DNA from: a virus
Taxonomy: Duplodnaviria; Heunggongvirae; Uroviricota; Caudoviricetes
Direction: 5' to 3' (one strand)
Virus record (IMG/VR): IMGVR_UViG_2778261537_000015
Span: 1-20,528 of that record
Length of the DNA stretch: 20,528 nt
In this document: positions 1-3,000 of the stretch, piece by piece
How the letters are laid out: each line of letters opens with the position of its first letter
Numbering within the stretch: position 1 is the stretch's first letter
Made by a program: the position numbers

Positions 1-3000
1 ATGGCACTGAATATTCCATTCAGAAATGCGTACTATCGTTTTGCATCCAGTTACTCATTTCTCTTTTTTATTTCCTGGTCGCTGTGGTGGTCGTTATACG
101 CTATTTGGCTGAAAGGACATCTAGGGTTGACAGGGACGGAATTAGGTACACTTTATTCGGTCAACCAGTTTACCAGCATTCTATTTATGATGTTCTACGG
201 CATCGTTCAGGATAAACTCGGTCTGAAGAAACCGCTCATCTGGTGTATGAGTTTCATCCTGGTCTTGACCGGACCGTTTATGATTTACGTTTATGAACCG
301 TTACTGCAAAGCAATTTTTCTGTAGGTCTAATTCTGGGGGCGCTCTTTTTTGGCCTGGGGTATCTGGCGGGATGCGGTTTGCTTGACAGCTTCACCGAAA
401 AAATGGCGCGAAATTTTCATTTCGAATATGGAACAGCGCGCGCCTGGGGATCTTTTGGCTATGCTATTGGCGCGTTCTTTGCCGGCATATTTTTTAGTAT
501 CAGTCCCCATATCAACTTCTGGTTGGTCTCGCTATTTGGCGCTGTATTTATGATGATCAACATGTGTTTTAAAGATAAGGATCACCAGTGCGTAGCGGCG
601 GATGCGGGAGGGGTAAAAAAAGAGGATTTTATCGCAGTTTTCAAGGATCGAAACTTCTGGGTTTTCGTCATATTTATTGTGGGGACGTGGTCTTTCTATA
701 ACATTTTTGATCAACAACTTTTTCCTGTCTTTTATGCAGGTTTATTCGAATCACACGATGTAGGAACGCGCCTGTATGGTTATCTCAACTCATTCCAGGT
801 GGTACTCGAAGCGCTATGCATGGCGATTATTCCTTTCTTTGTGAATCGGGTAGGGCCAAAAAATGCATTACTTATCGGTGTTGTGATTATGGCGTTGCGT
901 ATCCTTTCCTGCGCGCTGTTCGTTAACCCCTGGATTATTTCATTAGTGAAGCTGTTACATGCTATTGAGGTTCCACTTTGTGTCATATCCGTCTTCAAAT
1001 ACAGCGAGGCAAATTTTGATAAGCGCCTGTCGTCGACGATCTTTCTGATTGGTTTTCAAATTGCCAGTTCGCTTGGGATTGTGCTGCTTTCAACGCCGAC
1101 TGGGATACTCTTTGACCACGCAGGCTACCAGACAGTTTTCTTCGCAATTTCGGGTATTGTCTGCCTGATGTTGCTATTTGGCATTTTCTTCTTGAGTAAA
1201 AAACGCGAGCAAATAGTTATGGAAACGCCTGTACCTTCAGCAATATAGACGTAAACTTTTCCGGTTGTTGTCGATATCTCCCTATCCCTCAACCGGAAAA
1301 TAATAATACTAAAGTGCTTAGCCCTGCTAATAATCACCTAATCCAAACGCCTCATTCATGTTCTGGTACAGTCGCTCAAATGTACTTCAGATGCGCGGTT
1401 CGCTGATTTCCAGGACATTGTCGTCATTCAGCGACCTGTCCCGTGTATCACGGTCCTGCGAATTCATCAAGGAATGCATTGCGGAGTGAAGTATCGAGTC
1501 ACGCCATATTTCGCTATCAGGATTCTGTGTGATGGTTACATCGCCCGGCCCAGGGCTGTTTAGTCATCAGCGCTTTCTGACAGTGCTGAGATTTCAACCT
1601 GTTGCAGTAAAAATGAGTAGATATAAGGCAAGTGTGCTGCCAAACCTATCTTTTACGGGGTGAAGGTAGATTTCGTTTGAAGGGTATCTGGTGTCCCCTG
1701 CAGACATCTACTTGAGGCGGCAGGGGATTGATTGGAATGGTATTTTTTGGATGTGAAAAATATTTTACCCGCTATTTTACCCATTGGCGCGGCTTAAGAG
1801 CTTATTTTTGAATTCACAATGGTCACGATATAACCATCTTGCTCGCCCGTGGATAACTTTGGCTTTAGGCAGGTCTCCGGACTTAATCCGGTCATAGATG
1901 AAGGTTTTACCGAAGCCAGTATCGGCCATGATGAATTTCAAATCAACCAGTGAATCAGGTTGTAGTTCGTGTTGCATGAGTGCTATCTCCGAATAGGGAA
2001 TCGAACCTGCAAATCAGGCAATAAAAAACCGCCATCAGGCGTTTTTGTGTTCTTTCAGTTCTTCAATTCGAATATTGGTTACGTCTGCATGTGCTATCTG
2101 CGCCCATATCATCCAGTGGTTATAGCAGTCGTTGATGTCCTCTGCTTCGATAACTCTGTTGAATGGTTCTCCATTCCATTCACCTGTGACTCGGAAGTGC
2201 ATTTATCATCTCCATAAAACAAAACTCGCCGTAGCGAGTTCAGATAAAAGAAATCCCCGCGAGTGCGAGGATTGTTATTCATTGCCGATATTTACCTTTA
2301 TCGCGAACACCTTTACCGGTTTATCGCCGAAGTGCAGATGTGTGATTGTCTTGATTTCATATCCGTCATACGGAACATCAATTCTGCGGCTGGAGTCGTC
2401 GCGCTTCGGATATCCCTTTGTGATAATCAGGCGGTCATACTCCCGGAACATAATTCGCTTATTCCAATAGTCATTACACAGGCGATACTCTTCCGTTTTC
2501 TCCCCGCGAATCATGGCATCGAAGTATTCACCTTTGACAGCAAGTTGCAGGTTAGCCACGACCTTCCTCCTTTGGCTTGTGAATTTGTATCGTCATGCCG
2601 CTTTGAGTGGTGACTACAACGACAGAACCAGGCTGAAGACTGTTAAGATTGAATGCTTCGTAAAACGAATCCAATGCCAGTGCTTTTTTATTCTTTCGGT
2701 TCAACCAACGCCATCCCCTGCTACAGGCTACACTGACAATCCACTGTCCACTCCTGTAAGCCATATAAAACCAGATGAGCAAAACCTGAAGGAAGGCCAT
2801 CCAGTCAATAATTGTATATTTTGCGAGGGAGTCCATTACTTCACCTCCTGCGGCGGTTCTGGTAGCGGCATCCAGTGAGTTGCCTGCTCAATACCATTAC
2901 CCGGCTTAATCGTTGCTTCTCCTCGCCGGAATGTGCTTCCTGTATAGCGTGCGGAGCATATTAGCGGTTCAACCAGAGAGCTATCGAAATTCACCGAAAT

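What the first reader, a model, noticed from the sequence alone, without database searches (positions are those of the whole stretch)
1689..2012. Split tRNA homology: att core and adjacent T-arm segment of argW are both copied at the distal end but separated by the excisionase gene
In argW the 15-bp att core (19446-19460) is directly followed by GGAATCGAACCTGCAA (19461-19476). At the distal end the core lies at 1689-1703 and a perfect copy of the 16-mer at 1997-2012, same order and orientation, with ~293 bp (TTTTACCC repeats and torI) between them. This suggests either two successive integration junctions with different crossover points, or that the torI segment was inserted into a once-contiguous 31-bp tRNA-derived attachment sequence. 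Either bears on how the excisionase became linked to this integrase.
Basis: seen in the sequence. Interest (0 to 1): 0.45.

Follow-up and report, generated by a model that had tools for sequence, protein, structure and literature searches.

The report
tRNA T-arm copy before excisionase gene
The extra 16-base piece of the argW tRNA next to the excisionase gene is real. It is a fixed, old part of the well-known KplE1/HK620/Sf6 integration module, sitting just ahead of the excisionase start codon, and not a scar of rearrangement in this genome; its function is unproven.

Summary
**Observation.** It holds, with one correction. The 16-mer in argW lies at 19460-19475, so it overlaps the att core by one base. 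The union is 30 nt, not 31.

**Not strain-specific.** The same 16-mer sits 18 nt upstream of torI in K-12 KplE1, HK620, Sf6, a CUS-3-like prophage and all but a few of 80 IMG/VR contigs.

**Conserved core.** Its core, GTTCGATTCCC, lies about 29 nt before the excisionase start in Salmonella, Erwinia, Serratia, Pantoea, Edwardsiella and Enterobacter relatives. Their excisionases are only 36-50% identical to TorI.

**Dispensable.** About a quarter to half of lineages lack it, often through a clean ~25-nt indel.

**Where the tRNA match ends.** In 66 of 68 distinct leaders the match stops at or before the inferred boundary between the left core half-site of attB and the 7-bp overlap TGCAGGG. The phage's own left half-site is also T-loop-like. 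So this is a second, orphan copy of the attB left arm, not one half of a clean split.

**Not a crossover site.** None of 5,426 complete E. coli genomes shows a 16-mer × 16-mer deletion junction. The CUS-3 record that labels the 16-mer "att core" omits torI.

**Best guess.** It is an integrase (core-type) binding site that modulates torI expression. This is untested.

**Weakened by the data.** A TorI operator, an anti-Shine-Dalgarno hairpin and a cII-dependent promoter.

The parts
1689..1703 (.). attR core: 15-bp identity with the 3' end of argW. Inferred anatomy on the + strand: half-site GGTGTC (1690-1695), 7-bp overlap CCCTGCA (1696-1702), then the start of the inverted half-site GACATC (1703-1708).
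   Evidence: Exact repeat. The flank is identical to an empty argW site. The published KplE1 core is CTGCAGGGGACACCAT (PMC2951348). The half-site/overlap assignment is my inference from the inverted repeat.
1704..1782 (-). P arm of attR. Next to the core it holds the phage-side core-type half-site (GATGTC in tRNA sense). It also holds two arm-type repeats TTTTACCC (1763-1770 and 1775-1782); the second overlaps the torI stop codon.
   Evidence: Sequence. The left half-site consensus TTnGRTGTC comes from 46 distinct lineages.
1777..1977 (-). torI, the excisionase (recombination directionality factor), 66 aa.
   Evidence: Translation. It is 100% identical to HK620 HkaC, Sf6 gp18 and TorI.
1978..2022 (-). 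torI leader, the constant left edge of the recombination module. It contains the Shine-Dalgarno GGAGAT (+ strand 1985-1990), the T-arm copy, and ATTGCCTGAT.
   Evidence: The block is the same behind different upstream contexts in 80 IMG/VR loci. Homology with HK022 and 434 ends at ...TTTTTTATTG, 6 nt left of the 16-mer.
1997..2012 (-). The 16-mer: an orphan copy of the argW T-arm (tRNA sense TTGCAGGTTCGATTCC, i.e. T-stem 5' strand, T-loop and CC). The family-wide conserved core GTTCGATTCCC corresponds to + strand 1996-2006 and starts 29 nt before the torI ATG.
2023..2046 (-). Hairpin plus T-run (an intrinsic-terminator-like element) at the end of the upstream ORF55-like gene (2035-2202, minus strand). 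It is shared with HK022, 434 and Stx phages.
   Evidence: HK022 record X51962 labels the homologous region the tL4 terminator. The simple scan did not call it in this window, because the stem is 4-5 bp here.
18127..19284 (-). intS, a tyrosine integrase of 385 aa counting from the ATG at 19284.
   Evidence: Translation. It is 97-99% identical to the CUS-3, HK620 and Sf6 integrases.
19285..19445 (-). P' arm of attL, overlapping the intS promoter. It holds arm-type repeats (GGGTAAAA / TTTTACCC) and five TorI pentamers: GTTCG at 19434-19438, 19371-19375 and 19361-19365, GTCCG at 19414-19418, and GATCG at 19351-19355.
   Evidence: The TorI sites are defined as GTTCG/GATCG/GTCCG in PMC2951348.
19446..19520 (-). 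argW, tRNA-Arg(CCT). The attL core is at 19446-19460 and the native 16-mer (T-arm) at 19460-19475.
   Evidence: ARAGORN.

Best explanation
The 16-mer is a standing component of the IntS/TorI (KplE1/HK620/Sf6-type) recombination module, not a scar of an event in this genome.

**What it is.** It is an orphan copy of the argW T-arm, which is the left ("B") arm of attB. It lies in the 5' leader of the excisionase gene at the left edge of the portable block leader-torI-attP-intS.

**Where crossing-over occurs.** The real crossover takes place in the 15-16-bp core. The inferred core anatomy, in tRNA sense, is GATGTC-TGCAGGG-GACACC in attP and GATTCC-TGCAGGG-GACACC in argW.

**What the leader copy reproduces.** It matches the roughly 10 bp that abut the overlap on the bacterial side (GTTCGATTCC). 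In nearly all lineages the match stops at or before that boundary.

**Shown.**
- The copy predates the divergence of excisionases that are now 36-50% identical.
- It keeps a near-fixed distance to the start codon.
- It is retained in lineages whose arm-type sites have changed, and in one lineage (phiEt88) whose excisionase sites have changed too.
- It has been lost cleanly in several lineages.
- It is not used as a crossover site.

**Inferred.**
- It arose by joining or duplication of the attB/attP left arm next to the excisionase gene.
- It persists because the integrase's core-binding domain recognises it as a B-type half-site. In TorI-type lineages it also offers a TorI pentamer, GTTCG.
- Integrase bound at the P-arm sites about 215-235 bp downstream could bridge to it and damp torI expression in the lysogen.
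For: - **Family-wide presence.** K-12 KplE1, HK620, Sf6, a CUS-3-like prophage and 80 IMG/VR loci carry the same leader.
- **Divergent relatives.** GTTCGATTCCC lies about 29 nt before the excisionase ATG in Erwinia, Salmonella and other lineages. It is in 50 of 66 distinct leaders and in 15 of 33 species-level genome loci, including Serratia, Pantoea, Edwardsiella, Citrobacter and Enterobacter.
- **Boundary of the tRNA match.** The right end is at tRNA position 61 in 57 of 68 distinct leaders, at 59 in 9 and at 63 in 2. The left end varies between 46 and 52.
- **Left half-site of attP.** Its consensus TTnGRTGTC agrees with the tRNA's TTCGATTCC at the same positions (match fractions 0.67, 0.76, 1.0, 0.67, 0.98 and 0.87). 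This suggests both are integrase core-type sites, and that the leader is a perfect B-type copy.
- **Tracks the tRNA, not excisionase specificity.** phiEt88 has no G[TA][TC]CG pentamers in its P' arm; GTAAC/GTTAC occupy the same positions. Its arm-type repeats also differ (GGGCATA). It still keeps GGTTCGATTCCC in the leader.
- **Edge of the mosaic module.** Homology with HK022 and 434 ends 6 nt to the left of the 16-mer.
- **Open question in the literature.** PMC2951348 states that control of excisionase-gene expression is the unresolved switch in this module.
Against: - No binding or expression data exist for this leader. The overlap and half-site assignment is my inference from symmetry, not a mapped cleavage site.
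- An isolated core-type half-site usually binds integrase weakly, and no convincing inverted partner lies 7 bp away. What follows is the Shine-Dalgarno sequence.
- The element is dispensable. It is absent from 16 of 66 distinct leaders and from about half of the species-level loci, often as a clean ~25-nt indel.
- In the g341c-type clade the whole leader from -29 to the ATG is conserved, so constraint on the motif alone is hard to isolate there.
- The argument from changed excisionase sites rests on one lineage, phiEt88.
- Two related leaders (Serratia fonticola, Pantoea sp.) extend the tRNA match 2 nt into the overlap.
Confidence: 0.4

Rival explanations
1. Evolutionary relic with no function of its own. 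An old tRNA fragment was trapped in the excisionase leader. It survives because it lies in a short, selectively constrained translation-initiation region and because the module spreads as a block.
For: - The element is dispensable and has been lost cleanly in many lineages.
- Within the E. coli-type module everything is about 97% identical, so conservation there says little.
- In the g341c clade the whole -29..ATG stretch is conserved, not only the motif.
- A similar leader (CGTTCGATTCCCTAAACCGGAG) precedes an unrelated ORF that I read as lysozyme-like in one viral contig (L275).
Against: - Between deep clades (TorI, g341c and phiEt88 types, excisionase identity 36-50%) only the motif, the Shine-Dalgarno sequence and the ATG are shared. 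The spacer between them is variable.
- The motif's position is held at -29.
- One Erwinia phage carries two tandem copies.
Confidence: 0.2
2. One reading: torI plus the P arm was inserted into a once-contiguous ~30-nt tRNA-derived attP, splitting it into the 16-mer and the core.
For: - In the E. coli lineage the two pieces abut in tRNA coordinates, with a 1-nt overlap, and share order and orientation.
- A 30-nt block from T-arm to CCA is a typical phage attP identity block for tRNA targets (general knowledge).
- The split is ancient and family-wide.
Against: - The attP sequence immediately left of the overlap is itself T-loop-like in many lineages. Examples are TTCGATGTA|TGCAGGG and AGGTTAGATGTA|TGCAGGG, against AGGTTCGATTCC|TGCAGGG in the tRNA. 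That tRNA segment is therefore present twice, not split.
- No relative with a contiguous arrangement was found among the phage, viral-contig or genome loci examined.
- The leader element behaves as a ~25-nt indel inside an otherwise ordinary terminator-SD-ATG leader.
Confidence: 0.15
3. TorI operator: the GTTCG pentamer in the 16-mer lets TorI repress its own gene.
For: - TorI sites in attL were defined by mutating GTTCG/GATCG/GTCCG (PMC2951348).
- The window has five such pentamers at fixed positions in the P' arm.
- The 16-mer contains GTTCG, with ATTCG 12 nt downstream.
Against: - phiEt88 has replaced all P'-arm pentamers with GTAAC/GTTAC but keeps GGTTCGATTCCC in the leader.
- The conserved block is 11 nt long, more than the pentamer.
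- TorI sites normally occur in arrays, and here there is only one.
Confidence: 0.1
4. RNA-level control: the motif (GGUU..AUUCCC) pairs with the Shine-Dalgarno region (GGAGAU..AACC) to limit excisionase translation.
For: - The proposed two-tier hairpin is paired in 77% of cells, against 33-59% for slid registers.
- A C-to-U variant (AUUUCC) makes the inner stem perfect; for example the MFE is -14.5 kcal/mol for one such leader.
Against: - Covariation is not above the shuffles: the score is 0.036 against a shuffled mean of 0.046, with one double change.
- Folding energies lie within the shuffled distributions, with z from -1.7 to +1.1.
- The E. coli leader prefers a different fold.
Confidence: 0.07
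5. cII-activated pI-type promoter, as annotated in HK620 and Sf6. The 16-mer would overlap the -35 region and the second TTGC of a cII box.
For: GenBank annotations. HK620 carries "promoter; phage integration" at 1664-1702 and "cII protein" at 1689-1701. Sf6 carries "pI; possible integrase expression promoter".
Against: - The box is TTGC-N5-TTGC, not the canonical N6.
- No sigma-70-like promoter is found in 1650-2350 on either strand.
- The TTGC repeat is not kept in other clades (TTGCCTGGCTTCC), whereas GTTCGATTCCC is.
- The promoter was proposed before hkaC was known to be the excisionase, and it would drive xis, not int alone.
Confidence: 0.05
6. The first reader's first model, which is also the CUS-3 annotation: the 16-mer is, or recently was, an alternative crossover/att core.
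For: CUS-3 record CP000711 labels TTGCAGGTTCGATTCC as the attL and attR core.
Against: - In a genome with a 100%-identical CUS-3-type end (NU14), the prophage continues past the 16-mer into torI and then dsdC. The CUS-3 record simply stops short.
- The distal 16-mer lies about 300 bp inside the element, not at the host junction.
- 0 of 5,426 complete E. coli genomes carry the 16-mer × 16-mer deletion junction.
- Published cores are the 16-17-nt CTGCAGGGGACACCAT(T).
Confidence: 0.03

Closest known systems
KplE1 (CPS-53) / HK620 / Sf6 / CUS-3 IntS-TorI site-specific recombination module at argW (Panis et al., PMC2951348, PMC3509656)
   Same: - The integrase is 97-99% identical and TorI is 100% identical.
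- The core, the arm-type repeats, and the five TorI pentamers in the P' arm are the same.
- The order is torI-attP-intS, so the two genes end up at opposite ends of the prophage.
- The torI leader, including the 16-mer, is the same.
   Different: - The module itself does not differ in any way that matters.
- The cargo here is a 17.7-kb remnant with contractile-tail and baseplate genes, not P22-like genes.
- At attR the identity is 15 nt, not 16.
- The leader T-arm copy is not mentioned in the two Panis papers I could search.
Core-type (B/C) integrase binding sites and secondary attachment sites of lambda-type heterobivalent integrases
   Same: The leader motif equals the ~10 bp flanking the inferred 7-bp overlap on the attB side. 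It shares the positions that are conserved between the B and C half-sites.
   Different: - It is a lone half-site with no convincing inverted partner.
- It lies about 300 bp from the real core, inside a gene leader.
- There is no evidence that it recombines.
Displaced tRNA 3' fragments (pseudo-tRNA att repeats) at prophage and island ends
   Same: It is a short, exact tRNA-derived direct repeat associated with a tRNA-integrating element.
   Different: [quoted passage not shown]
- The 16-mer is the T-stem 5' strand plus the T-loop, lies inside the phage genome, and is also present in the deposited complete phage genomes (HK620, Sf6).
Autoregulatory overlap of att sites with recombination-gene promoters (intS promoter within attL; P2 Cox, P4 Vis)
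   Same: The idea is the same: binding sites for recombination proteins double as regulators of the recombination genes.
   Different: That mechanism is demonstrated for intS at attL. For torI the leader site is only inferred.

Membership tests
IntS-TorI (KplE1/HK620/Sf6) recombination module | IntS-type tyrosine integrase next to argW, transcribed away from the tRNA | tested here: met
   intS is at 18127-19284 (minus strand) and is 97-99% identical to the CUS-3, HK620 and Sf6 integrases. argW is at 19446-19520.
IntS-TorI (KplE1/HK620/Sf6) recombination module | TorI/HkaC excisionase gene at the opposite prophage end, reading toward attR | tested here: met
   torI is at 1777-1977 (minus strand) and is 100% identical to HkaC, gp18 and TorI.
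IntS-TorI (KplE1/HK620/Sf6) recombination module | Duplicated core CTGCAGGGGACACCA(T) at both junctions | tested here: met
   There are 15-nt exact copies at 1689-1703 and 19446-19460. The 16th base differs at attR.
IntS-TorI (KplE1/HK620/Sf6) recombination module | Five TorI pentamers (GTTCG/GTCCG/GATCG) in two blocks in the P' arm, plus arm-type repeats overlapping the intS promoter | tested here: met
   Pentamers lie at offsets 24, 44, 87, 97 and 107 from the core. GGGTAAAA/TTTTACCC repeats lie before the intS ATG.
Attachment core / crossover site (as the 16-mer is labelled in the CUS-3 record) | The repeat lies at the junction between element and host DNA at both ends | tested here: not met
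   Host flank identity ends at the 15-bp core (1689-1703). The distal 16-mer lies 294-309 bp further inside the element. A CUS-3-type prophage continues past it into torI.
Attachment core / crossover site (as the 16-mer is labelled in the CUS-3 record) | Recombination between the repeats is observed (empty sites or deletion products with that junction) | tested here: not met
   0 of 5,426 complete E. coli genomes cover at least 80% of the hypothetical junction.
cII-dependent pI-type promoter | TTGC-N6-TTGC box straddling a -35, with a usable -10 | tested here: not met
   The spacing is N5 (TTGCCTGATTTGC). No sigma-70-like site was found. The box is not conserved in other clades.
tRNA gene or pseudogene | Cloverleaf, or a substantial part of one, detectable by tRNA or Rfam models | tested here: not met
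   ARAGORN finds only argW. No tRNA hit falls in 1600-2350 even at E up to 10. Homology is limited to 16 nt.
TorI operator | The motif changes together with excisionase specificity across lineages | tested here: not met
   phiEt88 changed its P'-arm sites to GTAAC/GTTAC but keeps GGTTCGATTCCC in the leader. This rests on a single lineage.
Integrase core-type binding site | Sequence agreement with the half-sites that flank the overlap in attB and attP | tested here: met
   The leader equals the B side (tRNA positions 52-61). The C-side consensus TTnGRTGTC shares the same positions.
Integrase core-type binding site | Physical binding by IntS, and an inverted partner across a 7-bp spacer | not testable with these tools
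   No binding data exist. The sequence 7 bp downstream is the Shine-Dalgarno region (GAGATA), which matches GACACC at only 3 of 6 positions.

The most novel reading that the evidence does not exclude
The excisionase leader carries a working mimic of the bacterial half of attB. Integrase bound to the nearby P-arm sites would bridge to it and so silence or tune excisionase expression. That would be a feedback loop built from a captured tRNA fragment, and it would explain how lysogens of this widespread module keep excision off while integrase is made constitutively.
Probability: 0.25. Interest if true: 0.6.

Novelty: new member of a known kind. Interest (0 to 1): 0.38.

Why it matters
In this module the integrase is made constitutively and excision is decided by excisionase expression. 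The group that characterised KplE1 named control of the excisionase gene as the open question (PMC2951348).

A conserved, tRNA-derived, attB-like half-site at a fixed distance before the excisionase start codon is a concrete and cheap candidate for that control.

The analysis also corrects two database annotations:
- the "att core" in the CUS-3 record;
- the N5-spaced "cII box" in the HK620 record.

Finally, it shows that the split is a family trait, so it says nothing about the history of this particular strain.

Tried and rejected
- **RNA hairpin sequestering the Shine-Dalgarno region.** Pairing is plausible, but covariation is not above the shuffles and folding energies are within the shuffled range. 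Rejected as unsupported.
- **Sigma-70 promoter scan of 1650-2350.** No sites found.
- **Rfam scan of 1600-2350.** Only sub-threshold sRNA hits (STnc130, STnc420), driven mainly by the terminator hairpin. No tRNA-like hit.
- **Alternative crossover at the 16-mer.** No such junction in any of 5,426 genomes.
- **Relatives integrated at other tRNAs.** This would have tested whether the leader tracks the target T-arm. Most phage, viral-contig and genome relatives in which I could read a core carry the argW-type TGCAGGGGAC. A few genome loci showed no recognisable core, and I found no clear alternative tRNA target. More distant P4-type integrases (39% identity or less) appear to have other gene orders: in two Pseudomonas phage groups the AlpA-like gene and int are convergent, judging from coordinates. 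I did not pursue these.
- **First viral-contig search with the excisionase alignment.** It returned only 100%-identical E. coli-type loci. Queries with the g341c and phiEt88 excisionases were needed to reach diversity.
- **Papers not held.** Three lookups failed: a DOI I believed to be the CUS-3 description (King et al. 2007) and two PubMed ids I believed to be the 2007 JBC KplE1 att-site mapping and the 2013 PNAS Rho/torI paper. I could not check what these say about the torI leader.
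Full report
**1. The observation**

The 15-mer TGGTGTCCCCTGCAG occurs exactly twice, at 1689-1703 and 19446-19460. The 16-mer GGAATCGAACCTGCAA also occurs exactly twice, at 1997-2012 and 19460-19475. Shuffles give about 0.01-0.03 matches even with two mismatches allowed.

The two pieces share base 19460, so together they cover 30 nt of tRNA-Arg(CCT), from 19446 to 19475. argW itself lies at 19446-19520 on the minus strand.

In tRNA sense the 16-mer is TTGCAGGTTCGATTCC: two bases, the T-stem 5' strand, the T-loop, and CC.

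The 293 bp between the distal copies (1704-1996) hold torI (1777-1977, minus strand) and two TTTTACCC repeats.

An empty argW site (strain AREA_497) has the same flank as window 1650-1688, followed by core and 16-mer without interruption. So 1689-1703 is a genuine attR junction, and everything to its right is element DNA.

**2. What the element is**

The ends are the KplE1/HK620/Sf6 recombination module:
- TorI is 100% identical to HK620 HkaC and Sf6 gp18.
- The integrase (18127-19284) is 97-99% identical to those of CUS-3, HK620 and Sf6.
- The P' arm carries arm-type repeats and five pentamers (GTTCG ×3, GTCCG, GATCG). These are the sequences Panis et al. mutated to define the TorI sites (PMC2951348).

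The published core is CTGCAGGGGACACCAT; Kapi1 authors give 17 nt.

The cargo between the ends is a 17.7-kb remnant with contractile-tail and baseplate genes, related to a fuller prophage in strain E423.

**3. The 16-mer is a family trait, not a local scar**

The same 16-mer sits 18 nt before the torI ATG in several places:
- HK620 and Sf6 phage genomes;
- K-12-type KplE1;
- a CUS-3-type prophage in NU14;
- all but a few of 80 IMG/VR loci with 100%-identical TorI, the exceptions carrying single-base changes, and behind at least three different upstream contexts.

Lambdoid phages with other integration modules (HK022, 434, Stx phages) share the upstream ORF55-like gene and its terminator. Their homology stops at ...TTTTTTATTG, 6 nt to the left of the 16-mer. 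The T-arm copy therefore lies at the left edge of the portable block leader-torI-attP-intS.

Public records have treated this stretch in three ways:
- as the "attL/attR core" (CUS-3);
- as a "phage integration promoter" with a "cII" box (HK620);
- as "pI" inside a "boundary sequence" (Sf6).

The CUS-3 reading appears to be a mis-set boundary. The record ends at the 16-mer and omits torI, which follows in a genome with a 100%-identical CUS-3-type end.

**4. Deep conservation and dispensability**

I collected xis-attP-int modules from phage records, viral contigs and one genome per species. In modules whose excisionases are 36-88% identical to TorI, GTTCGATTCCC recurs about 29 nt before the start codon:
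- Erwinia phage Midgardsormr38 has two tandem copies.
- It is present in Salmonella g341c/Emek-type phages and in Erwinia phiEt88.
- It is present in prophages of Serratia, Pantoea, Edwardsiella, Citrobacter, Enterobacter and Phytobacter.

Fifty of 66 distinct leaders carry it, as do 15 of 33 species-level loci.

Between the deep clades only this motif, the Shine-Dalgarno sequence and the ATG are shared; the spacer between them varies.

Two deep clades share a longer version, TTGCCTGnnTT(G/C)CAGGTTCGATTCC. The ancestral match to the tRNA was therefore about 15-16 nt.

Lineages without the motif often show a precise ~25-nt gap between ...GCCTG and GAGAT.... The element is therefore not essential.

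**5. Where the tRNA match ends, and what that means**

Across 68 distinct leaders the left end of the match varies between tRNA positions 46 and 52. The right end is at position 61 in 57 leaders, at 59 in 9 and at 63 in 2.

The core region reads, in tRNA sense:
- GATGTC-TGCAGGG-GACACC in attP;
- GATTCC-TGCAGGG-GACACC in argW.

That is a 6-bp inverted repeat around a 7-bp spacer, the usual layout of core-type half-sites around an overlap. This assignment is my inference, not mapped cleavage data. On that reading the leader copy stops at the half-site/overlap boundary.

In 46 distinct lineages the phage-side left half-site has the consensus TTnGRTGTC. It agrees with the tRNA's TTCGATTCC at six positions, with match fractions of 0.67-1.0. 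Some lineages read TTCGATGTA or AGGTTAGATGTA there.

Two consequences follow:
- The phage carries that tRNA segment twice: a diverged copy as its own left half-site, and a near-perfect copy in the leader. The picture is an orphan duplicate of the attB left arm, not two halves of one block.
- The conserved part of the leader coincides with what an integrase core-binding domain would contact.

**6. Tests of functional ideas**

- **TorI operator.** The motif contains GTTCG. But phiEt88 has replaced every P'-arm pentamer with GTAAC/GTTAC, uses different arm-type repeats (GGGCATA), and still keeps GGTTCGATTCCC. This argues that the constraint follows the tRNA/core, not excisionase specificity. It rests on one lineage only.
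- **Anti-Shine-Dalgarno hairpin.** The proposed structure is paired in 77% of cells. However, covariation is not above the shuffles and folding energies are within the shuffled ranges.
- **cII/pI promoter.** The box is TTGC-N5-TTGC, not N6. It is not conserved outside the E. coli lineage. No sigma-70-like site is found.
- **Alternative crossover.** 0 of 5,426 complete E. coli genomes carry the junction that 16-mer × 16-mer recombination would produce.
- **tRNA-like RNA.** Neither ARAGORN nor Rfam detects one.
- **Generic T-arm.** The 10-11-nt core is common. Of 120 viral-contig hits to a motif-SD-ATG pattern, 79 precede TorI-like genes. The other 41 do not, and most of those look like real tRNA genes by eye. 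The specificity for argW comes from the longer matches, not from the core alone.

**7. Most likely account**

Shown:
- The 16-mer is a conserved but dispensable, tRNA-derived element of the excisionase leader in the IntS/TorI module.
- It is old and lies at the module edge.
- It is not a recombination site and not specific to this strain.

Inferred, with about 0.4 confidence overall:
- It arose when the attB/attP left arm was joined or duplicated next to the excisionase gene.
- It persists as a B-type core half-site for the integrase, with a TorI pentamer in TorI-type lineages.
- Integrase anchored at the P-arm repeats (1763-1782) could bridge to it and dampen torI expression in lysogens.

The main rival is a functionless relic riding in a constrained leader (about 0.2).

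It is weakened by the duplicate T-loop-like half-site and by the lack of any contiguous relative.

**8. Novelty**

The module and its sequences are well known, and the repeat is even annotated, wrongly, in one record. What appears undescribed in the papers I could search is that the excisionase leader carries a conserved copy of the attB left arm. Three relevant look-ups returned no held paper.

This is a new detail within a known system. It is of moderate interest because it offers a testable handle on excisionase-gene control.

Noticed in passing
L003/L004 (CUS-3 record CP000711, both ends); L005 (NU14 chromosome): The CUS-3 GenBank record labels the 16-mer TTGCAGGTTCGATTCC as attL and attR core and ends there, so it lacks torI and the true attR. 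In NU14, with a 100%-identical prophage end, torI and then dsdC follow the 16-mer.
   Followed up: yes
L001 1689-1701 (HK620 AF335538); window 2009-2021: The annotated "cII protein" binding site in HK620 is TTGCCTGATTTGC, i.e. TTGC-N5-TTGC. The canonical cII box has a 6-nt spacer, as stated in the phage 434 record. The box is not conserved in other clades.
   Followed up: partly
L302 (K-12-type KplE1, upstream of the torI leader); L036; L009/L011 2401-2470: In several contexts the DNA just upstream of the torI-type leader encodes what looks to me like the N-terminal helix-turn-helix of a different excisionase (...SLTLDEACAFLKISRPTI...), truncated at the module boundary. I read this as the IntS/TorI block having replaced an older xis-int module by a joint inside the old xis gene.
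   Followed up: partly
L006 about 2447-2481 (Erwinia phage Midgardsormr38): This phage has two tandem copies of CAGGTTCGATTCCC in the excisionase leader, 16 nt apart.
   Followed up: no
L168, L173-L180, L311, L327 (excisionase leaders): These leaders lack the T-arm motif through a precise ~25-nt gap: terminator-ATTGCCTG|GAGAT..ATG, against ...GCCTG-[~25 nt with motif]-GAGAT. The direction of the change (deletion or insertion) is unresolved.
   Followed up: partly
L010 2795-2975 (phiEt88 P' arm): At the five positions where TorI-type modules have GTTCG-like pentamers, phiEt88 has GTAAC/GTTAC/GTAAA. This looks like a switch of excisionase binding specificity with the site layout preserved. Arm-type repeats also switch, from GGGTAAAA to GGGCATA(A), in the g341c and phiEt88 clades.
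   Followed up: partly
L309 (Serratia fonticola), L312 (Pantoea sp. BAV 3049), L315-L317 and L139 (leaders): In these leaders the copy forms a fuller T-arm-like hairpin: CAGG-TTCGATT-CCTG, or ACAGG-TTCGATTC-CCTGT. In L309 and L312 the exact tRNA match runs 2 nt into the overlap.
   Followed up: partly
window 3641-18100; L301: The cargo is a truncated prophage. Lambdoid early-left genes (ORF55-like, ASCH-domain) are joined at about 3641 to a contractile-tail/baseplate cluster (DUF3383 sheath-like protein, SLT transglycosylase, baseplate J) plus Arc-family and antirepressor genes. Head, replication and lysis genes are absent. A related fuller prophage with the same IntS end is in strain E423.
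   Followed up: partly
window 1927-2054 (+) and 2019-2074 (-): There are sub-threshold Rfam matches to the Salmonella sRNA candidates STnc130 (29.5 bits, gathering score 55) and STnc420 (24.6 bits, gathering score 70). They are driven mainly by the ORF55 3' end and its terminator hairpin. Possibly those sRNA families derive from homologous prophage terminator regions.
   Followed up: partly
L275 (IMG/VR contig), minus strand around 3437: A leader very like the excisionase leader (CGTTCGATTCCCTAAACCGGAG..ATG) precedes an ORF that I read as a lysozyme-like gene, unrelated to TorI.
   Followed up: no
window 1-1248 and 1689-1704: The host flank at attR here is an MFS-transporter-type gene, as in the empty site of AREA_497, and not dsdC as in K-12. 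The att identity is 15 nt here (G follows CCA at attR), against 16 nt in K-12.
   Followed up: partly
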